NCBI GenBank assembly: GCA_002633005.1
Contig: NMRA01000010.1
Location: forward strand, 613,252 to 677,251
DNA length: 64,000 nt
Reading direction: 5' to 3'
Origin: Phoronis australis
Taxonomy: Eukaryota; Animalia; Phoronida
Shown: piece by piece, positions 6,784 to 57,807 of the stretch
How the letters are laid out: every line of letters begins with the position of its first letter
How positions within the stretch are numbered: position 1 is the stretch's first letter
The notes under the pieces: model-generated
Databases searched by the model: none
The model's input: the letters and a program-made list of their open reading frames with translations, nothing else
Told to the model about the DNA's origin: nothing
Translations under genes and position numbers: made by a program

Positions 6784-7118
6784 CGGGCCCTCAATCCCTT
6801 GATTTTGGGGCCGAATACCGGCTCCATTCCCCTCTGAAAAGTATTGAAATATCACACATAACTCCCATCATGAGGCCCAAAAATTCCCCTTGATTGAAAA
6901 GTTCCCTTTGAGGTTTGAATCACTTGTAACTCACACAAGTAACAATTTGAAAGAGTGTAAAAAGTCAGGTTTGGCTACTTGAGGCAGAGCCCATGAGTGC
7001 TTGCAACAGGGTGGCAATGCTTTGATGGTGATCAGGAAGTAGAATTTTCCCTTCACCACAAAATATTCCCTTCTCAGAAGGCACAGGCACCTTTCCCCTC
7101 AGATAAACGAGGGCCCTG
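6784..7118 (+). mobile_element. About 330-bp MITE (CAGGGCCCTC...GAGGGCCCTG termini), copy 1
   Basis: Short terminal inverted repeats; colinear similarity to the reverse complement of 16082-16401. Confidence 0.75.
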
Positions 7119-11470: not shown

Positions 11471-14400
11471 ATGACTGTTGTGCGACTGCAAAACATGATA
11501 CAGTTTCCAAAACATAACTGATTGTTCCTGTGTCATTTCCCAGCATCCCCTGGAGCTTTTTTCAAAATCTCTCCTCCATGTTTTGGTTAAAAAAATGTTA
11601 GCTGACTGACCTTTGAGTGATTGACAAATGTTCGAAGTCCAAAACCTGCCAGCTTCCTTACATGAATTATTTAAGGGAAGTAATCGTATAATAAGACAAT
11701 TATTGACTTTCACACTCGGTCAATAAGAAAATCAGTAAACCAGAAAATATATGAAAGCTGGTAAAACACCAAGCTGATGTCGCACAACAAAATTAATCCA
11801 TTTTCAAAAGAATTTCAACAATTAATTCAATTGCAGGTGACTTTTCGGTAAGTTACTCACGTAAATTTCGAATTTTTGTCAGAGGTGCCTCGGAAAACAT
11901 TTGAAGATTAGTACTAGACAAAACATGTAAATTAAAACTCACGACTCCCTTAATTTATAGAAAGACCTGTTGCACCAACAGAATTAAAATCCCAGCAAGT
12001 AGGTGAATTTAACACCAGAAAATTGACTTTGATGTGTTGTGAAAACTGAGCTTCAGAGTCACTGGAGTAATAAGAAAGTGTTTGTGACAAAAACAGCATG
12101 TGGCATTGTTAAGTAGTTGAGTTGGTGTTTTATTAAAAAATTCAACATTTTACCACTTTTAGCACTTAATTTCATTACTATTTGAACGTAAACACGATTC
12201 TTCATTGTTAAAAAATCACAAACTTTCAAAGTACTTTGATGAACCAAGCATCAGCAGCTGATATCTTCAGTGTCCGTCAATTACTGAGACAAGTAGGAAT
12301 GGTTCGGCTAACTTCCAGTAATTGCATCAAATCTTGTCTTGTACTAGAAAAACTTAAAGATATCTCAAACCTTATTCACAAAACTTGGTCGGTGTTACAA
12401 TATTTCACACATATCTAGCAAAATACCTTATATTTATTTTCAGAGAACTTCAAATATGAAATATAAACCGTGTAGCGAAAAAAGATTCAGCAGAACCACC
12501 TTGGAACCACACGATCACGTGGAAATTTGTTTACTACTCATCCAAAGTCAAAGGTTACAGGGCTGTCACTCAAACTGAATCTCCCACCAGGCACAGAGCA
12601 GCTACGAATCGCATGTACCTTCAGTTTTTTCATTCACTGAATATCCATAAACAAATAATGAGTCAACGAGGTGTACATGTAAAAGAAAGATGCCGGGGAA
12701 AAACAAGACAAAACGTAGTTTTGACCCTCTGGTAGTTGTACATCTGAACGCATACAACCGTTGAAAACAAATGCTCCGAGTTACCGCACGCCTCTGTGAC
12801 TTTTTGTTCACGGACACCCAAATTCATTAATTTGATACGTAATTTGATATTTCCTACTTCTATCTCAAGTTCACGATGCGATTTAACCACTGACTTGATT
12901 TCTGCTGTCCATTTCATAACTGGTTTTGTATCAGTTTGCCAGCACATGGTGGGTATAACAATGAACTGATGATCTACTTTTAATTAGGTCAACAGTTGAT
13001 CCCGCCTACTGGACCAGAGACCGTCACAAAATTAACGTTTTAGCAACAACGAAGTTAATTGTGGCATTGCAAATTCAATTGACATAGCGAGTGAACGTTG
13101 AAACAGTGAACATAGTTACGGCATGATAGTATAAGTTAAACTGAACGAAAACAAGTTTTCACCGAACAATTAAGCTTGAGATTTTCATGTCTCACAACTT
13201 AATTGGATTTTTCTCAGCTTCGGCAAATCGACATAATTTGAACTTAGGAACACGACTTCTCGGAAACGGCTCAGTGGATTTCGCAGAAACTTTCCATGCT
13301 TGATATTTATTCATCAGTCACAGAAACAGTGTTATAATACATACTTGTACTAGATGACAAAGAACGGTTAGAATGGAGGGCATTAAAGAAGGCTCGAGAT
13401 GACTTTCAGTCAGAAAGGGAATATACAGAGTAAACACATTTATTAATACAGCTTCCCAGTAAATATATATCCAATTAACTTTGATACAAGTCAGCTTAAT
13501 AAGGCCTAATGTGAGGAGTGGCAATAAATGGGATTTACTATCAGTGGAAGTCCTCTGCTGCATTAAGTTGGACAATTGTGATTTAATTAGTACCGCATGG
13601 TCTGTGACAATGGATTAGTGTGTCCCAGAGGGGGCAGTGCACTGCAGCGGTAATCAGTTTAGGCTCACGTCACTTAAGGATTAATTGAATCGATAAGCCA
13701 CACCAGGGATTCATTCTTATACACATCACCATGAGAGTGTGTGAGAGTGAGTGAGTGAGTTTGGACAAACTTGTGAGAACAGTGATTGAAAACCTTTGTT
13801 GCTTGAAGCCCACACAGCAGTAATTAGGAGAAGATATATGGTAATTCTCCACAAAAATAATTACTAAAACTGTCATTTTTCTATTTCCAAAGGCTGATTA
13901 CATCACTGCAAACAACGGAAATTTAACCAAAAGTTGCATTATGGCATATACATGAAGTATGCTCGTGGTGGACTTAAATTTTATTAATCTTTATTTTTGT
14001 GGAGAAATTTGACTAGAGTTTCACTTGTCGGCAACAGTGTGTGCTAAATAAGTGAAAAATTGGCATATGCATCAATTTCATCTTGTCACAAAATTAGACA
14101 GGTCTCTTCGTCCATAATAGAAGACAGAACCCTTGCAAGAGAGGTTTTCATAAAAATAACTTTTATTTCATGAACAAATCCAAAGTTGCATAAAAGAAAA
14201 ACGAAATGATAATTTGTAAAAGTAGTGTTTTGAGACTTCATCTTGAAGATTTATATAAAACGAAATTAGGTCATTTTATTGATATTGCTGTTTAACTATG
14301 AATGCACCTTTTTTGTTAAATTTTACTCAAGACACAGCCACACGACCCAGTCAATGGCAGGCTGGTATAAAGTCAGGCTTTCTACTACTACAAAATGTAT

Positions 14401-16081: not shown

Positions 16082-16401
16082 CAGGGGCCTCGTTCATCGG
16101 AGGGGAAAGGTGCCCGTGCATTCTGAGAGGGAAATAATTTCGCCGAGTGAGGGGGAAAATCTACCTCCCGATCATCATCAATAGCACCCCCGTCCTGTTG
16201 CAAGCTCTCATAGGCCGTGTCTCAATGTGCTCTTTCAAATTGTCACCTGTGTGTCGGTTACAGGTGATTTGAAATTCGGAGAGAACTTCACATTAGGGGA
16301 ATTTTTAGGCTTCATGGGGGGAATTTCGAGGGACTTTTCAATATTTTTGAGAGGGGAATAGGACCGATATTCGGCCTAAAATAGAAGGATTGAGGGCCCT
16401 G
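16082..16401 (-). mobile_element. About 320-bp MITE, inverted copy 2 of the 6784-7118 family
   Basis: CAGGGGCCTC...GAGGGCCCTG termini; shared blocks such as TTCTGAGA, TGTTGCAAG, TTCAATA, TTCGGCC, GGATTGAGGGCCC. Confidence 0.75.
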
Positions 16402-18192: not shown

Positions 18193-21100
18193 CTGAAAAA
18201 GATGTGTGTTCGACTCTTTAAAATCATAGGTCTGGGGATAACAGTAGGCGTACACCTCTAAAACTTTCTAAAAAGGTCAGCACCTGTAACTTTCTAAAAA
18301 GTTCAGCATCTGTATCAAGAGGAAAGTGCACATTATCAGAGTTACTCTTTCGAGTGCGAGGGTTTTGCCAAAAAAGTATGTGCGACAAAACAAAAAATAT
18401 CATGTTACATCTGACGTATGTCCATGTGTGCTCAACCAGGATCCTTCCTAGAAAATAAAGTGCCACTTTAACATTGGTAACAGGGTACGAGTTAAAACAG
18501 GCTGTTCTTACAAGAAACAAAACAGTTGCTAAGTCGTTCCCTAAAAATGTTTATGAACTAACAGAACAAGCTAACCATGTAGACGAGGGGTTCCAGTAAT
18601 GATACATGTGATTCATTTTCCAGCTGCACTACAGATCAACTGATTGTGAAACTGATAATTAACATGTGTCTTAAGCTGGCATCAGACAATTGCACGTTTA
18701 AGCTGCATTCAACAGAGGGCGCCGGAGCAAGAGTGCATACACAAAACTGCTAGAGAATGTACAGTTCTGTTATGCCTCATCTACGAGGGTTCACTTCTCC
18801 CACCAGAAATTGCCCAAATTGAAACAACTACAGCATACAAGAGAAGGAAGGGAGTCCTATAAAGCTGTTGCCTAGTTCCACCATAATGTAATGTGTACAG
18901 GTGTTATTGATTCACCTGACCCTACAACAGTAACTTATGATTTGAACTACTTACCATCAAAAAAAAACTGGGTGGAGTTCATCAACGCTAGGATCTTGCT
19001 AAAAACTAGCCAAAATCATATGTTCTCATTTGAAATACATGGCAATATCTCACATAATCTCGCAAAGTCTTGCTTTTTGAGTGAGGTCCTAGCATTACTG
19101 AACTCTACTCTGGTCTCCTCTTTGTTCTTTAATAAGTTAGAGTCGATTTCTGGGGCTCAACAATAACTGAGAGTTTCTTATTGCCTGACACCATGCTCAA
19201 TAATTTACCTCGTCACGAGGGGTTATTTCATGGTCTCTAGCAATAAAAAACTGTCCAAAAATCACCCCGCCTCGTAAAAGTAAGGAATGGGATAAAGTGC
19301 TTAAAATCACTAATTTTGTATTAAAAACACCAAAACTGAGAACACCCGCAAACATTACTTGACGACATGTTAATTACCTAATCTCAAGATGCAAACAATC
19401 GTTGCTCGATACATACTGCATAAAATCGGACAGCCAATCACAGCACTAGTAATCCTTCACTGCATTCACTGTGAATATTCGTCAAATATTGCTGCTCGTT
19501 ATCCCATGGTTTATGGTATAGCAAGGAAATGCGAAGCATTGCATATGTGGTGGTTGTGACAGCTTAGTATTTCACCACGCTGTGGCTCTTTTCACTTTTT
19601 TTGGGACATCAGAGAAGCACGGATTTGACACAAGTTAGTACAAGAAACTTGAGTGTTCATACGTTACACTCATGTCCGTGGAGCTAAGAAACTTTTAATA
19701 GAATTCGTTTTTTTATTGCTTTCTCGTTTTTGGACAGTGAATTCATGACTGTGATAAGTAATGCTATAAAAGGAGATGAAATGTAAGTCACTTGAAAACG
19801 AGGTAAATGGTGGTTATAAGCACTGTAAAACCAGTTTTACGAACACAAGTGGTCTACATGAAAAGTTTTAACTTTGATTAATTTTTTTAATGGAAGATGG
19901 GTTTATAGCAGCTTTGATGAAAAATTATACCCTGACAGCTACTGGTAACGGTAAAGGAAGGCAATGACTTAACTGATGACACCATAGTTAATTCACAGCC
20001 ACAAACGAACTTAACAGCTGGCACAACCAAACAGGCAGTCCATAGGTTTGTGATCTTGATTCCACTTACCTCATGGATAAGTTTACATGTTTCAACCTTT
20101 CCGAACTGACCAAATAAATAGGCAATGAAATCTTCTGTTACAGATGGGTCAAGGCTGCCAACGTACCTGGAACAACAATTGTGGAAATGCTTGAGAATAA
20201 GACGGGGAGACATTGGTCGTTCAAACACTAAGACTGATACGTAAGGTAAAATCTAAATCTAATGGCTTTCGGATTTCATTTTTTTCAGTTCCATCTACTG
20301 AGTAGGCGAGGATCTTTAACATTATAACGACGTTGGAGCATAGTGCACTGTAAACTTAATGCCACTAGCATGCTGTCATGTGTTGCTCTTTTCCTGTCTG
20401 AAAAACGTGCAACGTTTGTCAATAAATAAAATTTCTTGCATATATTGAATTTCGTGGTATATTCAAGCATAAGAGCAGCCAGATAGATATTCTGAATAAC
20501 ACAAGCAACAAGTTTCAACATTTTTGTCACTAGGTTCCCATTTGAGGAGACAGTGTGGCCTAGTGCGATAGGTTCCCACTTTCTGTGCTTAAGGTCATGG
20601 GTTCGAGTCCCACTGGGCGACACTGCTAAACCCTTGAGTCAGGTTTCAAGTTCCTCAGCTTGGTTTTATGTATATATTAATAAAGCACAAAAATGGTTCT
20701 AGGTGGTCATTGCAATGGACCTAAAGTGCGACCTGGGCACATCTGGTACAAAGTGTACCAGACGACTGCTTGCAATTATTTTTTTGTTCCCATTTGCTGT
20801 CAGTCGCACTGACGGTACTTCTCGTGCACTCTGTAAGTACATGTCACTGTTGTGAGGTCATAACAACACTCGAGCAGTAAAGGTGCTTCAACCATGTTGT
20901 TGAAGACTGGATTTGTTCACACTTGTAAAGCGTTTCAATGTGTTCTTTTGAATCTAGCACTTCTAAGAAAAACAAACAATACCAAAGCCATATCGGACAA
21001 TAACTTTAATTACTAAACGTTCCAATGCCCACCGACACTTGATTGACAACACAGCCATGTGTGTATCTCAGTGTACATCAGTGTATATTAGTGTACATCA

Positions 21101-24099
21101 CTGTATATCAGTGTACATCACTGTATATCAGTGTACATCAGTGTATATTAGTGTACATCACTGTATATCAGTGTACATCAGTGTTGCACTGTATATCTTT
21201 AAAAACAGCACATGAAGAGCATGACATACAGCCTTGAGATCAACATGTCAAGTGTTTATCTCACGTTGCACACTATTTTGATAACAGCGAGATACAATGG
21301 TTGAGAGCAGCTTGAATGCTACGCTGGACAGCGAAAATACACTTAACAATGGTACAGAAATGGACTTAATATAAATGCTCAGATTTTACCCAAAACGCAG
21401 ACTAATTACTGCACGGTAACGAGTTCCATAAATACAGAAAGGTTGGCACCTTTTTTGTGTTGCATCTTCTTTCTGAAGTCAGCATAGTTGACAACATTCC
21501 AAACTGAAAAAGCAGGATACCTTAATCTAGGTAAGCCTACGACAAGATGTCTGCAGCAACACTCAGAGACATCATGCTGCTTTTTACTTCAGTTTGCAAC
21601 TGGGAAATAGAAGTTATAGTGCAATGAAAAATATACAAAAATATGCAGCCACGGAATGACACAATGGCGTGTCATATATATATTGTCGTGTATGTCAAAA
21701 TGCGGGACATTGTGATTTTGTGGTAGTACGCAGCTTTAAAAAGTAGGACAGTCCCACCACAAAAAAAGACAGTTGACAACTTCGTTTCAGTGCCAAGCAG
21801 ATCAATCTTCATCTAGTTTTTTTGACGGACTGATCTCGCTTACCGAGTCGGCAAGTAATAAGCTTACATAAAAAAGTATACGAGATAATACATGCTATAA
21901 AAAAATATTGGGTAGTGATTGATTAAATCAAAGGCATTTTGCCGCTTAGTTCGTGCTAAATTGTTTTTTTTTCTACATCCACAAAAGAATGAATCCAGGA
22001 TGTACGAGTTATGAATTTTAATATTTATTCAATAAATTTCATCAATGAGAATGTGTGGTAGTAGGGAACATCAGACAAATAACTTTAAAGTATTGTGTGG
22101 TGCTAGTTCTCAGACAATCCCATACAGGTGTAGGAAACACGTAGCCCCTCGGTTGGCCATTTAGGGGCTACAATACTTCCCATAGCTTTCTGTACGAATT
22201 TCGTCCCATATATTTTAAACGGGCAATAGGCCAAATCTGGCCACCGATTTAGAGTTTTCACCTCGTCAAAAATACATTCCACACCTAAACTATCACTTAA
22301 GAAAGAGCTCACTTTCTTAAGTGGTCCTTTCTACTTCTACACGTCTTCGATGAAGCTTAGTTATGAGAATTAAGGCGACTTTGGCGAAGGATTCCAACTC
22401 CACTTTTTTGGTTATCGTTAACTTTTTCACCACGCGCACATTAACCACAAAGTATTTCAACTGAGTCACGTGAGTTAGGCAAAGGCTAGCGCAAGACTAG
22501 CGCGTGACGTCACGTGACACTTGCAAAATAGCATGGGAAGGTATCAGGTGAAATTTGTAAGATTTGTGTCCCTTGGACGTTTTATGTCAACATGCGTGAC
22601 TTCAGGTAACTTCCCCAAAATGGCTCCCGGTAAGAGAAACTCGCCGCGAACCGCGACAGATTTTCATCGATTTGTTCAAATTATCTTGTCTGAATCGTCT
22701 CCAGACTTATGGTATGTGTTGATTATAACTCCATGTGCATATATGCATGTTTCATGTGATTTTGCTTCCTGTGTTTTGAAATTCGTAGCATTTGTGGGGA
22801 CGTACTATCGCCCCTGTATGCCTGCGGCATCCAGGTGGTGCCAATGTGGAATTGCTCATAGTGTTTTACCCACACATGGAACTTTGATCAAGTTCTAAGG
22901 GATGTGTTGTAGATGTGCTTCCGGTGAATTATATGAGCCTCTGTTAGCTACTCGCTAATGGGCAATTGCCCATTAGCTGAATGGTTAGCACGCTTGCCAG
23001 TTTTATGGGGGTCGCGGGCTCGATTCCCGAGTCGGGTGATCTCGGCTATTACTACAAATGGCGTAGTTGGCAAACGGATGATCTACCGATGAAGCACTGC
23101 CAACTAGTACCCACGGATCTCGGGACGGCGCGTGTGGAAGGTTCCAGTAGTCAAGGACCTGTATGAGAGACTACCTTGTGTTCACCTGTGTTGTGGTGGT
23201 AAAGGTACCAAGGGACGTTGATGACCTGTATGCGAGACATCCTGGTGTTCACCTTCCTGGTGGCGTGCCTGTTCCGTAGGGAAGGGGGGAATGTTGTAGA
23301 TGTGCTTCCGGTGAATTATATGAGCCTCTGTTAGCTACTCGCTAACTCGCTAACAGGCAATTGCCTATTAGCTGAATGGTTAGCACGCTTGCCGGTTTTA
23401 TGGGGGTCGCGGGTTCGATCCCCGGGTCGGGTAATCTCGGCTATTACTACGGATGCAAACAAAGAGCTGTTTGGATACTTTATTTAATTACACTTTAAAC
23501 TATACCTGGGATACCACTCAAGACAAGTCAACCAACTTCTGATTGACATAAGTAGCAGCTACAAAATTCGTCTCGGCCTCTAGACAAGTTGTTTCTCATC
23601 TTGGAAAACTTTCTTTACAAGCCTAGAAATCGCATTTAATTTGAGTGCGAGAATAATTTGAGATAATGTCAAGCGGTCTCAATCAAAGGCTGTTTTGTGA
23701 TGGAAGGCAGCTTAAAATCAAATCCCAACAAATAGAAGGCAACATGAACAAGAGTGCTTTCCTTGTCTGCCGATGGGGACTAGCATTTGACAATGTTCCT
23801 GATACAGAAAAAAGCTTGGTTTATACGGATACACGGCTTTTCCAGGTTCAATTCCCTTATGAGGGTTTGATTTGACTAGAAAATTAGTGCAGCATTAACG
23901 ATGTAAAACAACATTTGGTCATTTCTAGCATGTGATTGTGGACGTTTTGTCGAGCATGTTGTCGAGTGTTGTGATGTGTCAACCGGCTACAAAAGTACAA
24001 GATGTTGGCTTACGGTCACCGTATTTATTCTGAAAGTACTCACAGTGTGCGACCTTTGACCTCATCATCGCCGTGTTCTCCGTGATTGTGTTGAAACAT
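18097..24099 (-). CDS. TIAL1: TIA-1/TIAR (nucleolysin, Rox8-like) RRM protein, 5' part; exons 24044-24099, 20070-20166, 18097-18192; gene continues beyond the left edge
   Basis: Spliced translation MFQHNHGEHGDDEVKGRTL|YVGSLDPSVTEDFIAYLFGQFGKVETCKLIHE|PGCDPYCFVEFSDPKSAAVALCSMNGRWCFDK matches TIA-1/TIAR RRM1 (TLYVGxL RNP2, DPYCFVEF RNP1). All junctions are GT-AG with compatible phases. The symbol is family-level (TIA1/TIAL1 co-ortholog). Confidence 0.9.
20070..20166 (-). CDS. TIAL1: TIA-1/TIAR-like coding exon 2 (RRM1 RNP2)
   Basis: CAG acceptor, YVGSLDPSVTEDFIAYLFGQFGKVETCKLIHE, donor GTAAGT; 97 nt. Confidence 0.93.
20548..20660 (+). mobile_element. Degenerate tRNA-derived SINE head
   Basis: A-box-like TGGCCTAGTGCG and B-box GGTTCGAGTCC followed by CCCTTGAG; no intact cloverleaf. 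Confidence 0.65.
21060..21197. repeat. 10-bp minisatellite CA(G/C)TGTA(C/T)AT
   Basis: About 13 consecutive units. Confidence 0.95.
22905..23451 (+). mobile_element. Complete TRIM (miniature non-autonomous LTR retrotransposon) with tRNA-like Pol III sequence inside both LTRs
   Basis: LTRs at 22905-23056 and 23292-23451 (TGTTGTAG...CTACTA[C]A/G-like ends); PBS TGGCGTAGTTGGCA at 23059-23072; PPT AGGGAAGGGGGGAA at 23278-23291; TSD GATG at 22901-22904 and 23452-23455. Confidence 0.93.
24044..24099 (-). CDS. TIAL1: TIA-1/TIAR-like coding exon 1
   Basis: ATG at 24099, MFQHNHGEHGDDEVKGRT(L), donor GTGAGT, phase 2 matching the next exon. Confidence 0.8.
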
Positions 24100-28984: not shown

Positions 28985-46318
<17,334 letters not shown>

Positions 46319-46728: not shown

Positions 46729-49700
46729 GTAAGTTATGAGTAGGCTAGTAGATACACGTCACTCACGGGGTGAGATTAATACAGGAACTCATAGTGATAC
46801 TGGGCACTGGTCGGATAAAGCGGACCCTGATTTTGAGAACCAGTTTCATCCACTGAATAATGGGCCCGTTATTCAGTGATTGCCTGGTTCTCAAAATCAG
46901 GTACCGCCCTATCTGACAAGTGCCCTGATACTGATAAGGAGGACTGTAAAGTGTAGCCCCTGGCCCTGTATTAATATTGTCAGCCGAGGGGATACGTGTT
47001 GCCGGTGGCTTGTAGCCTTATAGAGAGTGGCTCTAGAGACGGTGGTACTCCCATAGGGCCTTCATACACTGGAAGCTTTTCGGCGAATTATGCCTCACAC
47101 TGATTAAACCATCAAAGTCACATGGCTGTAAATTTTTTGTGCATAGAATTACACCTTAGGAGGCCGCCGATGTCTTTAATTCCTTCCTACTCTATCAGTT
47201 ACTCCTGTAATCAAACTTTTTTTCAAGCAGTCCTTCGTTCAGTTTCCCAAATCGGTAACTGGCCATTTTTACACTGCTCGCGCCAGGGGATATAACGTTA
47301 TTATATTGTTTTTCAATTTAACAGCTTTAAGGGGCAATGTGAGTTTCGGTTGGCTCCCAGATTTTGCATCTGCCCTTGCGGTCGTTAGCTCATGTTGATA
47401 TGTTTTGTGATGAAGAGACAAGCAGAACTACCTGGGCGGTGCGACATTTCAAGGTCTATGGGAGCTTAAGGCACAGTGGTCCCTAACTATATTTTGATGA
47501 TAGTCTTCACGCAGCCAGCTGACTGGCTAAGTTCTGAGCTGCTTAATACTATATAAGTTATGTTATATTTTGTTGACAAATGAAGAGAGGTATTTGAAAG
47601 AAATCAATTACACAAGTATTTGTTTAAGTTGGAAGGATTTAAAGACAACGACAGCCTCCTAAAGTGTCCCTCTTTGCTTGAAAGATACTACCTTGTAGCA
47701 ACTTAACGAGCCAGTGGTTTAGCCAGTGGAACATAATTTGACGTGCTGAGACAAGGGATGGAAACACTGTCTAATAATCTGCGATACACCAACTCAGACC
47801 TGAAGTTGCTGATTATCAGAGTACTTTAGAATAGATTCTGTGTAAGAAAAATCAGAAGAAGAAATCCCAGGTGTTGTGGCAAAATACTAGTCGGGCGTGA
47901 TAGTACCAAGAAAATCATATTTATGTTGGTATTTACAGGACCTTGTTATATTTCTCTTCATTTTACCTTCTGAAAGAACGACAATCAACCTCTGCCATCT
48001 TGTGCATCATATTAAAATTAGTAGTCATCTGAATTCTAGCCAATGCGAATCCAGGTAAATGTTGGCTTCTTTTATTTCACACAGACTTATACCCCTTTTA
48101 AGAACAAAATTAATACAGGCTATAACTGTTGGTTTTATTGGTTCGTACTCAGGCCTGGCTGAATGAGAAGTTTTCCCCCGAGCTTCTGGAAAATAAGATG
48201 GAGGTGGTCGATTGTATGCTTCAACAGCTCGAATTGATGGAGCAGAACATACGGCAGGCAAAGAAAGGAGATTTCAAACTGAGCATTCACAGAATGGAGG
48301 CGAGTACTCTTGTAATAAATCAGCGTTCGCATGTCATGCTTGTAAGTGCCAGTTCTTTCGACATTTAAAGTGGTAAACTAAAAAACCTAGTGGGCAAATT
48401 TGACAAGTATTCTTGGATGCACAGTGTAATGTTCTTTGCCTGTACTACTCTAACTTAAAAGGCCGGACATTTTAAAAAATTTGGTCAGTCGTTCAGCTGG
48501 TAATAGTCGCTCACGGGATCTCGCATTTTGAAAACCAGTTTCTCCACTGAATAATGGGCATCAAACTAGTTCTCAATATCTGAGACCCCTGCAAGTGACC
48601 GTTGCCTTGCAGTCTCTGTATTTCCTCTGCAACGAGAGAGTTCCATTCGAGATGGGGCTATTATCTATTATCACAAATTGGAGATTAGAAATGAAATGGC
48701 AGTGAAAATGATTAGCACTGTCAAATGACTTGCACATGTTATATTAATGGTCACATGACATCCCTTAAAGTAAACCCCTATTAATGGTACAGGCTGAGAC
48801 TCTACAGGTAAAATAATTGATGTAGATTTTATGCTTAAGGTCACACCTCATCTCGTATACAAAAAGTATATGTAATGGGTACACACTGGAGAAACAAACA
48901 TAAAATGTATATACTGCTGGAAGTGCGTTTTATACACTGTACCATATTTTAGTTTCAGAAAAAACAGTAATTCATTATCCAAGAACATTTCAAATCTTGA
49001 ATATTTTTCAGTCAAGTTTCAAAAGCTTTCACCAAACATGCATGACGCTTGTTCATTTTGATATCAAAATAACATGTTTCTACAATTGTGTGAGCTGTCG
49101 GGTTGTCTTCCTTGTTTTGTATTATTTGTTAAAGTATTCTCTATCAAGTCTTTTGGCAAATTGTGTGACGTGTATAATTTTGAAGTGAACTTGTAACTGA
49201 AGCTGTTATTTTGAACTTTTTAGTGTTTTGTTACACTGAAGTAATCTTTGAGTTTGTTGTAATTTCAGATTGACCGAATCAGATTCATCTTGAGTAGTTA
49301 TTTACGGATAAGATTAAAAAAGGTAATGAAGACTTTTAGCTTTCTGTGCTTTCTAAGCTTTTTCTGTTTTATTTTTACTGAATGGTCTGAAAAGGTCTTT
49401 TTCAAGTGTAGGTAGTTAAAGTTGTGGCCAATAGATGTCCTTAAGAATCCAACTGAAGGGCTTTTGAAATGATTTTCCACTTCTGACTTAAAACTGTAGT
49501 GTAAAAATCTTTTTTAATTTATGTGGGTTACTAATATCTTGAAACAGAAGATATTAAACACTGCACATTAGTACGACGTGATGTGAGGTTGAACATGTAA
49601 GTCATTTTTATGAAAAGTAAAACTGAAAAAATATAAAACTGAAAAAGTGATAAAAAACTCTACACTCCCATCTGTGTTTTATATCTTTGGAAAACAGTTT

Positions 49701-55700: not shown

Positions 55701-57807
55701 AAGGCAATTTTGTTCTTGGAAAACTAGTGTATCATGTAAACAGTGATATGTTTTGTTTAAGAACAGATTACATGTACGTCATAAACAAAATGGTGAAAAG
55801 ATAAAGGCCACAATATTGGTTAGTGTAAATAATGTTGAAATTTTTCTAAAAAGGTGCAACAAAAAAGACGTGAGTGATTTGTGTGGACTCTAGCAGTTTA
55901 TGTCACTAAGATTAAAAACATTGATTCTGCCATCTACTGTTAACTGGACTGTTTTGTCATGCTGTTTAACGAAATAGTTAGAATTACGTAAATCTTCACT
56001 TATTTAGCATATATAATGGCTTACGTGTAAAATATTATTTTCACAAATTTCTGTACTAAAATAAACTTTAAGAAAGTTTTAGTTCATTGCTTGCATAGTG
56101 TGTGTTGTGCAGATGCCATAAAACAGTTTTTGTTAAATTTTCTATAATTTGTTTGTAGTAATGTAATAAGTCTTTGAAAAGTGGTAAAATTTTAATTATT
56201 ATTTGTGAAGTAAGTGGATAATTATAGCACGGAGTTGATTGCCTAAACCAATCAAATTAGTTGTCCATATATGGGTATCACAGTTATAACAACAGTTCTT
56301 GGAACAGGAAGTACTACCAGTCACCTCCCAGAAAGTGAAGTAAAATCACATCTTATGCAATGACTAATGTAAACAGAAACACAATCTGCTAGACAAATAC
56401 ATGCCTTGTTAGTAATGGATATTTTTCACTATATCAACTGACAGCATGTGTGAAATGTTGTAAAGGATACTTGGGCTTCACATTTCATTCTCCAAATAAC
56501 ACGGTATATCGGTTTTGCAGATTGAAAAATACACGCAGCATGTTTTTGACATGGAGAAACAGAGGAGCGGTGACCGGGATCCCTTGATGACCCCAGAGGA
56601 GTTGAGTTACGCAAAAGAGTAAGTGTTCAGTAGATGCACATATGCTTTTTTATGTGTCCTCACATTTATATGTGAACGCATTATTGATAAACAGGTCTTT
56701 ACCGTAGGTTGCAAGCATTTTTATTAATAGAACACTTGTTGAAATCATGCGTAGTAATGATGGCTGTAACCGTTCTGAGCTCCTCCGTAACTGATTTTGT
56801 CGTACATAAACTTTTGGCATTGGTTGGTAGTGAAAGTGGTATCAAGGAAATGTTTATGCATTCACAGTTCTTGTAGCAGAAGACTTTGAGTACAGCACAA
56901 TTTGGAACAAAGTAGTAGCCTCTTTTTCTTTTTTATTTGTTTTTGTTGTGAATACCCACAGTCTTCATGAAAATTGAATAGCATTCAGTTTGGTGCTACA
57001 TAATTTATGAAACTGATGACAAAATAATGTTTCAATTTCCTCTATGATTTTACCATACTTGTAAGACTTCACTAAACTATCAGTACCAACTTTGATACCA
57101 TCTTTTTTTCTAGATATGCAGAAAGCATTCAACAACATTTGCACTCTGTAGCTCTGCATCATATGCCTCAAAATCTCCAGAATTTGGACCCCCTACAGAC
57201 AGGTACTCTTGTTATATATCATTTCATGTTCAGTAATGTCACGGAAACTGTGATTGCGGTTTGTCACTTTGTGCGAATAAGTTGGGTTGATTAAATTCTA
57301 CACCGTGTAGCTGAGTTCTGTACATTTTTTTAACATGTAAGATTGGAGCAAATTTTGCATTTTGCAGTATTTATGTGTTGAATAATTCGTTTAAGAAAGT
57401 GTGATTATGTCTTTGTGACAAGGTAGGTTTCTGCAGGTACTGCGATCAAATACTGCTTGAATTTTATAAATAATTTAACTTTGCTTTTTTCAATCCTTTT
57501 ACACTGCTAAAATATTCAAGCTGTAATGTATGTGCGCTCACAATGTATTGCTTCAGCTTTTGTAAGATCAATAAAGTTTTTAATCCATTTCTTTGACATT
57601 TGAATTGTTTTAGTTTATCTAAAGACACGGTCGCGTTAATTTTCGTGCTTACAACCTCCAAATGCCTGATTTTGTCTGTCGCAGTTTCTTCATCACTTTG
57701 TCCCATTTCTTATTAGCGGAGAGGCCAAATCTCGATGCCTATGTGTTTGTGAAAGCCAACGAAGATATTGAAGGAATAATTGTAGATGAAGAAACTGAAG
57801 AGCAAAG
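46630..57807 (+). CDS. GINS4: DNA replication complex GINS protein SLD5, 3'-partial; exons 46630-46728, 48153-48299, 49269-49322, 56521-56618, 57114-57202, 57717-57807
   Basis: Joined translation ...LTAAEVLKRLED|AWLNEKFSPELLE...IHRME|IDRIRFILSSYLRIRLKK|IEKYTQHV...TPEELSYAKE|YAES...VALHHMPQNLQ|RPNLDAYVFVKANEDIEGIIVDEETEEQ matches SLD5 motifs (WxNEKxxPELL, RIRxxLSSYLRxRLxKIEK, PxLDxYVF). The terminal exon was not found before 64000. Confidence 0.95.
46800..46927. mobile_element. Palindromic hAT-like MITE in GINS4 intron 1
   Basis: Near-perfect fold-back (GGGCACT...CCTGATTTTGAGAACCAG...CACTGAATAA/TTATTCAGTG...CTGGTTCTCAAAATCAGG...AGTGCCC) with an imperfect 8-bp flanking duplication (ATAGTGAT/ATACTGAT). 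Confidence 0.7.
48153..48299 (+). CDS. GINS4: GINS4/SLD5 exon 2 (ends at GC donor)
   Basis: AWLNEKFSPELLENKMEVVDCM...KLSIHRME, donor GAG|GCGAGT. Confidence 0.9.
48505..48600. mobile_element. Related palindromic MITE remnant in GINS4 intron 2
   Basis: Shares TTTTGARAACCAGTTTC..CCACTGAATAATGGGC with 46800-46927; imperfect inverted arms. Confidence 0.6.
49269..49322 (+). CDS. GINS4: GINS4/SLD5 exon 3
   Basis: IDRIRFILSSYLRIRLKK, TTTCAG/GTAATG. Confidence 0.95.
56521..56618 (+). CDS. GINS4: GINS4/SLD5 exon 4
   Basis: IEKYTQHVFDMEKQRSGDRDPLMTPEELSYAKE, TTGCAG/GTAAGT. Confidence 0.95.
57114..57202 (+). CDS. GINS4: GINS4/SLD5 exon 5
   Basis: YAESIQQHLHSVALHHMPQNLQNLDPLQT, TTCTAG/GTACTC. Confidence 0.93.
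57717..57807 (+). CDS. GINS4: GINS4/SLD5 exon 6
   Basis: ERPNLDAYVFVKANEDIEGIIVDEETEEQ, TAG/GTGAGG. Confidence 0.95.

What the first reader, a model, noticed from the sequence alone, without database searches (positions are those of the whole stretch)
22901..23455. Intact miniature LTR retrotransposon whose LTRs carry a tRNA-like RNA Pol III promoter
Seen: two 152/160-bp direct repeats beginning TG and ending CA (3' copy CG), a PBS TGGCGTAGTTGGCA two nt after the 5' LTR, a polypurine tract abutting the 3' LTR, a GATG target duplication (or GGATG if the terminal A was lost) and a 235-bp non-coding interior. Each LTR contains a tRNA-like segment with A-box TAGCTGAATGGT, a GCT/AGC D-stem, B-box GGTTCGATCCC in a CGGG/CCCG T-stem, and a degenerate anticodon arm. 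Known: the PBS is complementary, with one G-U pair, to the 3' end of eukaryotic tRNA-Ser (...TGCCGACTACG-CCA). Cassandra TRIMs carry 5S rRNA in their LTRs, and I recall tRNA-bearing TRIMs being named Helenus. Inference: this is a SINE/LTR hybrid transcribed by Pol III and mobilised in trans by a Ser-tRNA-primed autonomous LTR element; the family may be undescribed in this species.
Basis: partly seen in the sequence, partly recalled or inferred. Interest (0 to 1): 0.85.

Follow-up and report, generated by a model that had tools for sequence, protein, structure and literature searches.

The report
Helenus-type mini LTR retrotransposon
This is an aged copy of a small, gene-less, many-copy jumping element whose two end-repeats carry tRNA-gene promoter boxes, a kind described in 2024 as Helenus; it is likely transcribed like a tRNA gene and likely copied by a larger retrotransposon's enzymes, so it is a new example rather than a new kind.

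Summary
The element is real: LTRs at 22905-23056 and 23292-23451, a 235-bp non-coding interior, a tRNA-Ser primer site, a polypurine tract and a target duplication. Public DNA runs show a dispersed family at hundreds-fold the depth of the flank, ending exactly at the LTR borders, and a solo LTR in a second organism. A and B boxes sit at tRNA spacing, but no tRNA fold survives. It fits Helenus (Kojima 2024). Its primer site is not among the published families. The host is a lophotrochozoan outside bivalves and gastropods. Pol III transcription is inferred, not shown; RNA reads show no start pile, and conservation of the boxes among copies is not significant. A 4-bp target duplication and a Gypsy helper are favoured, not proven. 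One extra: a hairpin-plus-palindrome module just upstream of the A box looks, by eye, shared with published bivalve, nemertean and fish Helenus and is not mentioned in the paper's text.

The parts
22901..22904 (+). left target-site duplication GATG (22900-22904 if 5 bp)
22905..23056 (+). 5' LTR, 152 bp, TG...CA
   Evidence: loose ends of many contigs and reads fall at 22905 and 23056
22943..22971 (+). hairpin (22943-22959) plus 12-nt palindrome (22960-22971) directly upstream of the A box; likely U3/R boundary and Pol III start region (inferred)
   Evidence: z -4.5 in 5' LTR, -5.2 in 3' LTR, 0 of 200 shuffles each; similar layout by eye in published animal Helenus
22974..22984 (+). A box TAGCTGAATGG of 5' LTR
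   Evidence: no variant at 15% or more in four runs
23001..23004 (+). T4 run between A and B boxes (candidate Pol III terminator when reached in the 3' LTR; inferred)
   Evidence: no variant at 15% or more
23017..23027 (+). B box of 5' LTR, non-canonical in this copy (GGCTC)
   Evidence: other copies canonical in 5610 of 5618 depth units, 42 contigs of run X3
23057..23291 (+). non-coding interior, 235 bp
23059..23072 (+). primer-binding site complementary to the 3' end of tRNA-Ser (AGA/CGA/UGA type)
   Evidence: most copies pair without the wobble
23098..23106 (+). 9-nt inverted partner of the PBS 3' half (23064-23072), 25 nt away
23156..23263 (+). 41-nt direct repeat pair (23156-23196, 23223-23263; 80% alike)
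23278..23291 (+). polypurine tract
   Evidence: the common variant at 23281 stays purine
23292..23451 (+). 3' LTR (160 bp ending CG, or 159 bp to 23450); A box 23369-23379, T4 23396-23399, canonical B box 23412-23422, 8-nt duplication near 23337-23352
   Evidence: depth falls to single-copy level after 23458 and 38 contigs of X1 leave at 23450 into unlike flanks
23452..23455 (+). right target-site duplication GATG (23451-23455 if 5 bp)
20167..24043 (-). host context: first intron of an RRM gene (TIA1/TIAR-like by recall); the element lies antisense in it
   Evidence: exon 1 ATG at 24099, RNA reads on exon 1

Best explanation
This is an aged copy of a many-copy, non-coding miniature LTR retrotransposon with tRNA-type A and B boxes in its LTRs (Helenus kind), likely transcribed by RNA polymerase III from the 5' LTR and likely reverse-transcribed and integrated in trans by a tRNA-Ser-primed Gypsy element. 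Shown: LTR pair, primer site, purine tract, target duplication, dispersed family, solo LTR, boxes at tRNA spacing without a tRNA fold. Inferred steps: (1) TFIIIC binds the internal boxes and Pol III starts near the GGG at about 22960, 14 nt upstream of the A box; (2) it reads through the T4 at 23001 in the 5' LTR, the primer site and the interior, and stops at the same T4 in the 3' LTR (about 440 nt, a terminal repeat of about 45 nt) or runs on to T-rich flank; (3) the RNA is packaged by the helper, primed by host tRNA-Ser, plus strand primed at the purine tract, and integrated with a 4-bp duplication; (4) LTR-LTR recombination leaves solo LTRs. This particular copy is likely a weak or silent template, since its 5' B box is non-canonical.
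For: Structure. Family: summed contig depth over the interior is 318-552 times the unique flank in X1 and 199-415 times in X2 (a rough measure, not a copy number); loose ends with unlike flanks (agreement 0.39-0.5) at 22905, 23056 and 23450; a whole LTR with flanks on both sides in organism B (144 of 152 alike). Boxes: A-box T to B-box G53 distance 44, against 45 in a plain tRNA (the 45 is textbook knowledge); motifs TRGCY, YGG and GGTTC that define Helenus boxes are met by the 3' LTR and by nearly all copies. A common variant (23016, 35% of X3 depth) breaks the T-stem but not the B box, and the acceptor stem pairs at only 3-4 of 7: sequence boxes kept, fold not. Primer: the motif is the reverse complement of the human tRNA-Ser 3' end. 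Helper: the same 12-nt PBS occurs in two sponge GAG-POL Ty3/gypsy elements and one dipteran errantivirus; published animal Helenus share PBS only with Gypsy and make 4-bp duplications; the solo LTR flanks match 3 of 4 as a 4-bp and 3 of 5 as a 5-bp duplication. RNA: over the interior, reads in the orientation that should mean sense RNA outnumber the other about 2:1 in X8.
Against: No direct evidence of Pol III use. Two RNA runs show no pile of starts or ends inside the element; 65-82% of laid reads run on into unlike sequence, as expected for copies inside other transcripts; over the LTR the antisense orientation dominates. Box conservation among copies is not significant: 0 of 6 common variant sites fall in 17 box positions of 152, Fisher p = 1.0. 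The T4 lies inside the unit in both LTRs, and human Pol III stops efficiently at T4 in vitro, though read-through is seen in cells. No helper element was found, because no host genome is held. The duplication length rests on one ambiguous site and one aged solo LTR. The host's own tRNA-Ser was not checked.
Confidence: 0.72

Rival explanations
1. An ordinary TRIM transcribed by Pol II or by read-through from host genes, whose LTR carries a dead SINE or tRNA head as a passenger.
For: No start pile, both strands covered, most reads run on into other sequence; conservation test not significant; T4 only about 40 nt after the predicted start.
Against: Both boxes are kept at tRNA spacing in nearly all copies and in organism B while the stems decay; the same boxes are kept across published families of six animal phyla; the boxes fill about half of a 152-bp LTR.
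Confidence: 0.2
2. Same element, but the helper is a BEL/Pao or Copia element that makes 5-bp duplications (GGATG, terminal A lost).
For: GGATG matches perfectly on both sides; the nemertean Ajax and fungal Helenus make 5-bp duplications.
Against: The solo LTR fits 4 bp better (3 of 4 against 3 of 5); all animal Helenus with a measured duplication in Table S1 have 4 bp; the PBS is recorded in Gypsy elements.
Confidence: 0.15
3. The tRNA-like part is a working tRNA or the element's own primer.
For: D-stem (3 bp) and T-stem (4 bp) can pair; ARAGORN gives an untyped hit on the 3' LTR at 80% score.
Against: Nothing at default or 90% score, no Rfam tRNA hit, broken acceptor and anticodon stems, fold z only -1.2 to -1.6; a canonical PBS for host tRNA-Ser is present.
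Confidence: 0.03
4. A chance local duplication or dimer of a tRNA-derived SINE.
For: Only one copy lies in the 64-kb window.
Against: PBS, purine tract and TG...CA ends at the exact LTR borders; interior and LTR are both many-copy, with sharp common ends; no poly(A) or simple-repeat tail.
Confidence: 0.01

Closest known systems
Helenus (TRIMp3), Kojima 2024, PMC10886601
   Same: Two short LTRs with tRNA-type A and B boxes, PBS, purine tract, under 1 kb (547 bp; published range 311-1263), no functional tRNA, solo LTRs, likely 4-bp duplication as in animal families.
   Different: PBS of the TGGCGTAGT type is absent from the published consensus file (0 hits; Fig. S2 lists Ser-TGA and Ser-GCT types with other sequences). 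No published animal family read here matches it along its length (by eye). Host is not Lingula anatina or a bivalve by the tankyrase tree.
Ser-primed mytilid Helenus-2 families (MyGa, MoPh, LimFor)
   Same: Ser primer, LTR 141-156 bp, interior 226-268 bp; the first 9 nt of the LTR equal those of Helenus-2_MyGa, and an interior stretch matches Helenus-2_MoPh at 18 of 19 columns with one gap; upstream hairpin module.
   Different: Different tRNA-Ser isoacceptor end; similarity is patchy. The interior match has a chance of about 0.001 for that pair but about 0.4 over the whole file, so kinship is suggestive only.
Cassandra and Ajax (5S-type TRIMp3)
   Same: Pol III promoter inside the LTR of a non-autonomous element; Cassandra is reported to start in the 5' LTR and end in the same motif of the 3' LTR (as cited by Kojima).
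   Different: 5S boxes A/IE/C rather than tRNA boxes A/B; 5-bp duplication in Ajax; Cassandra is plant-only and the only one with shown Pol III transcripts.
biv-TRIM (Satovic 2019, PMC6934838)
   Same: Lophotrochozoan TRIM; some have 9-10-bp inverted repeats 25 bp apart in the interior, as here at 23064/23098.
   Different: biv-TRIM has no canonical PBS, and the passages read mention no polymerase III boxes; this element has both.

Membership tests
Helenus (TRIMp3) | Two LTRs, total under 1000 bp, no coding capacity | tested here: met
   547 bp, longest ATG frame 61 codons
Helenus (TRIMp3) | PBS just inside the 5' LTR, complementary to a tRNA 3' end | tested here: met
   14-nt match to tRNA-Ser end; host tRNA itself not checked
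Helenus (TRIMp3) | Polypurine tract abutting the 3' LTR | tested here: met
   23278-23291
Helenus (TRIMp3) | tRNA-derived sequence in the LTR with A box (TRGCY, YGG) and B box (GGTTC) | tested here: met
   met by the 3' LTR and nearly all other copies; this copy's 5' B box departs by one base
Helenus (TRIMp3) | Dispersed repeat family with solo LTRs | tested here: met
Helenus (animal) | 4-bp target-site duplication | tested here: inconclusive
   this site fits 4 or 5 bp; one solo LTR favours 4
Helenus (animal) | PBS shared with an autonomous Gypsy element of the same genome | not testable with these tools
   no host genome held; PBS type recorded in Gypsy elements of other animals
TRIMp3 in the strict sense | Transcription by RNA polymerase III from the LTR | tested here: inconclusive
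   two ordinary RNA-seq runs show no start or end pile; also unproven for all published Helenus
A named Helenus family in Repbase/Dfam | Sequence match to a deposited consensus | not testable with these tools
   no such library on hand; the 2024 supplement has no family with this PBS
Cassandra / Ajax | 5S rRNA-derived sequence in the LTR | tested here: not met
   no Rfam 5S match at E up to 10; boxes are tRNA-type
Functional tRNA gene | Cloverleaf with paired acceptor and anticodon stems | tested here: not met

The most novel reading that the evidence does not exclude
The hairpin, palindrome and A-box module upstream of the tRNA-like part marks one ancient or horizontally spread lineage of animal Helenus that spans bivalves, nemerteans, coelacanth, sturgeon, carp-like fishes and this further lophotrochozoan, against the published view of many independent SINE captures; the module sets the Pol III start and the short terminal repeat, and this family moved termination to a leaky T4 between the boxes and switched to a new Ser primer.
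Probability: 0.35. Interest if true: 0.55.

Novelty: new member of a known kind. Interest (0 to 1): 0.3.

Why it matters
It adds a host lineage and a primer type to a class described only in 2024, and a many-copy family in a species with RNA data is a usable test case for the open question whether any Helenus is really a Pol III unit. If the upstream module is homologous across phyla, the history of animal Helenus would need redrawing. Otherwise it is one more example: this scan's own notes already list 32 such findings in at least 11 genomes (unchecked).

Tried and rejected
No whole genome is held, so copy number, duplication lengths and a helper could not be counted. The 14-nt PBS pattern in viral contigs gave 120 or more matches; none aligned to the element beyond about 18 nt, so they were treated as chance. 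A B-box-plus-PBS pattern in metagenome contigs gave 33 loci; all 33 matches lie in prokaryote-type tandem tRNA genes, none is an LTR element. Run search: no RNA holder listed; this is no evidence either way, and raw RNA runs were laid instead. Rfam gave 4 weak unrelated matches at E up to 10 and none at gathering score. Box-conservation test among copies not significant. The uneven decay of the two LTRs (7 against 1 differences from the majority) is not significant, p = 0.07. Joints from interior back to LTR are not evidence of tandem arrays, since the stretch laid held only one LTR. Interior folding is no better than shuffles (z +1.0, +1.4). Host phylum could not be fixed: sister to Lingula at SH-aLRT 91 / bootstrap 55, no named annelid or phoronid in the set. 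The original Cassandra paper was not held. A computed alignment to the published Helenus sequences was left out, so all such comparisons are by eye or by motif count.

Full report
1. Observation. The window holds two direct repeats, 22905-23056 (152 bp, TG...CA) and 23292-23450/23451, around a 235-bp interior. They differ by 8 transitions in 151 aligned sites (K2P 0.056), an 8-nt duplication and the last base. The primer site is at 23059-23072, the purine tract at 23278-23291. GATG flanks the element; GGATG fits as well if the final A was lost, and both readings give the same empty site. The A box is in both LTRs (22974, 23369). The canonical B box is only in the 3' LTR (23412); the 5' LTR has GGCTC (23017). 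The distance from A-box T to B-box G53 is 44, against 45 in a plain tRNA (the 45 is textbook). An A+B pair arose in 1 of 20000 resamples of the LTR and in 0 of 30 resampled windows; the primer motif within one mismatch occurs once in the window. ARAGORN and Rfam call no tRNA. The D-stem has 3 pairs, the T-stem 4, the acceptor stem 3-4 of 7, and the anticodon arm is broken.

2. Family. There is one copy in the window and no genome is held, so I laid public runs (7 of the 9 listed). In DNA contigs of organism A, summed depth is 45 on the right flank and 318-552 times that over the interior in X1, 199-415 times in X2. The tool warns that this is no copy number; it does show a large family. Contigs and reads leave the element at 22905, 23056 and 23450 into unlike flanks (38 contigs at 23450 in X1, agreement 0.39; 32 contigs at 22904/22905 in X3), so the copies are dispersed. 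Organism B holds a whole LTR, 144 of 152 alike, with other sequence on both sides: a solo LTR whose flanks match 3 of 4 as a 4-bp and 3 of 5 as a 5-bp duplication. In the complete variant table at 15% no row touches the A box or the T4. At 23019 other copies have the canonical B-box base (5610 of 5618 depth units in X3; 120 of 120 reads in X8). At 23068 most copies pair with tRNA-Ser without the wobble (2254 of 2288). A variant at 23016 (35% of X3 depth) breaks the T-stem and leaves the B box. One PBS position, a CpG, varies in 17-20% of RNA reads and 2% of DNA depth. Against over-reading: only 6 LTR sites vary commonly, so finding none in 17 box positions is not significant (p = 1.0).

3. Context and host. 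The element lies antisense in the first intron (24043-20167, minus strand) of an RRM gene (TIA1/TIAR-like is my recall). The neighbouring tankyrase is 81-83% identical to mollusc, brachiopod and nemertean proteins and 69-77% to deuterostome, arthropod and coral ones over about 800 columns. In trees it falls outside the bivalve-plus-gastropod clade (bootstrap 92) and weakly with Lingula (SH-aLRT 91, bootstrap 55) (37 and 24 reference proteins picked). The host is a lophotrochozoan, not Lingula anatina and not a bivalve or snail; its phylum is open, and the two lineid nemerteans of the paper were not in the tree.

4. RNA. Two stranded-looking runs were laid. In X7, exon 1 of the minus-strand gene has first mates on + only, which fixes the convention; I assume the same for X8, from the same study. 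Over the interior, sense-orientation depth is about twice antisense in X8 (23-56 against 9-28); over the LTR antisense dominates. No start or end pile lies inside the element; 65-82% of reads run on into unlike sequence; only 1 of 377 reads in X8 is 99% alike to this copy, and the right flank has no RNA depth in X7. So the family is present in RNA at low level, from other copies, and these data cannot tell Pol III from read-through.

5. Mechanism. Shown: the cis parts of LTR retrotransposition and no coding capacity. Inferred: Pol III starts near the GGG at 22960, copies the boxes, primer site, interior and left part of the 3' LTR, and ends at the T4 there (about 440 nt) or in the flank. The only T4 runs in the element are 23001 and 23396, so the polymerase must pass in the 5' LTR the signal it would use in the 3' LTR. 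Cassandra is reported to start and end within the same repeated motif (Kojima's citation). Human Pol III stops efficiently at T4 in vitro but leaks in cells (PMC3141230). The primer motif is the reverse complement of the human tRNA-Ser end (PMC3299991), and the same 12 nt are the PBS of two sponge GAG-POL Gypsy elements and one fly errantivirus (PMC13524379 supplements). With the 4-bp leaning this points to a Gypsy helper. I put the Helenus identity at about 0.9 and the whole chain at about 0.7.

6. Comparison. Kojima 2024 (PMC10886601) defines Helenus as TRIMs with tRNA-derived LTR sequence, boxes TRGCY/YGG and GGTTC, PBS and purine tract, 4-bp duplications and Gypsy-type PBS in animals. Every feature I could test is met or inconclusive; none failed. 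The PBS type is new to the set (0 hits in the consensus file; Fig. S2). The nearest published families by eye are the Ser-primed mytilid Helenus-2 group; the statistics make this suggestive only.

7. The extra observation. Directly upstream of the A box lie a 6-bp hairpin and a 12-nt palindrome (z -4.5 and -5.2, 0 of 200 shuffles each). By eye the same layout precedes the A box in many published animal LTRs. The 9-nt motif that ends the module in those families occurs 26 times in the consensus file: 2 coelacanth, 21 bivalve and 3 nemertean LTRs, and none in fungal, wasp, Lingula or plant records (line breaks can hide hits). This element differs from that 9-mer at two positions, so it is not one of the counted hits; the likeness is in layout. 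The carp-like fish and sturgeon families show a variant by eye. The paper's text has 0 hits for 'hairpin' and 'palindrom' and argues for multiple origins; figures were not visible to me. Searches for Helenus with TRIM and TRIMp3 found no follow-up on this in the library held. No alignment was computed, so this stays a lead.

8. What I read. PMC10886601: main text parts 1-4 and 6 of 6; supplement parts 1 and 5-11 of 11, parts 2-4 (fungal by file order) by motif search only. PMC3141230, PMC6934838, PMC7215508, PMC13570524, PMC3299991, PMC13524379: passages only, plus three supplement rows of the last. Kalendar 2008: not held, known through Kojima only.

9. Verdict. Real, well-formed, and explained by a published class: a new member of a known kind. 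Interest 0.3. The most novel reading, one cross-phylum lineage marked by the upstream module, has probability about 0.35 and would deserve about 0.55.

Noticed in passing
window 22344-22835: A second many-copy repeat directly upstream (depth up to about 3000 times the flank). In 67 contigs of X1 and 60 of X2 other copies continue past 22835 with a short tail containing CTAG after a GC-rich hairpin, which looks like a Helitron 3' end (recalled motif); this copy lacks that tail.
   Followed up: partly
window 22954-22977: In the 5' LTR two changes private to this copy turn the family's imperfect palindrome into a perfect 24-nt one; one is a CpG transition, so chance is plausible.
   Followed up: partly
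window 23064-23106: The PBS can be folded away by a 9-nt inverted partner 25 nt downstream; perfect in this copy, 8 of 9 in most copies.
   Followed up: partly
window 22925-23059: Depth on the left half of the LTR is 4-5 times that on the right half at 90% likeness, which hints at sister subfamilies that share the left part.
   Followed up: no
window 20533-20623: A tRNA-like stretch with a canonical B box at 20600, ARAGORN hit only at 90% score; likely a SINE head or tRNA pseudogene in the same intron.
   Followed up: partly
window 28988-46318 (-): Intron-rich tankyrase gene, at least 18 exons matched to the Lingula protein; used to place the host.
   Followed up: yes
window 48126-48368 (+): Exon that looks like GINS4/SLD5 (recalled; Pfam gave only a weak unrelated match).
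   Followed up: no
window 6785-7118 and 16082-16399; 13852-14056 and 55995-56207; 46802-46925: Other dispersed repeat pairs (67-73% alike) and a 124-bp imperfect palindrome.
   Followed up: no
L121-L153: 31 of 33 metagenome loci share one tRNA-array junction in large tRNA clusters (up to 30 tRNAs in 6 kb), mostly 54-59% GC.
   Followed up: no
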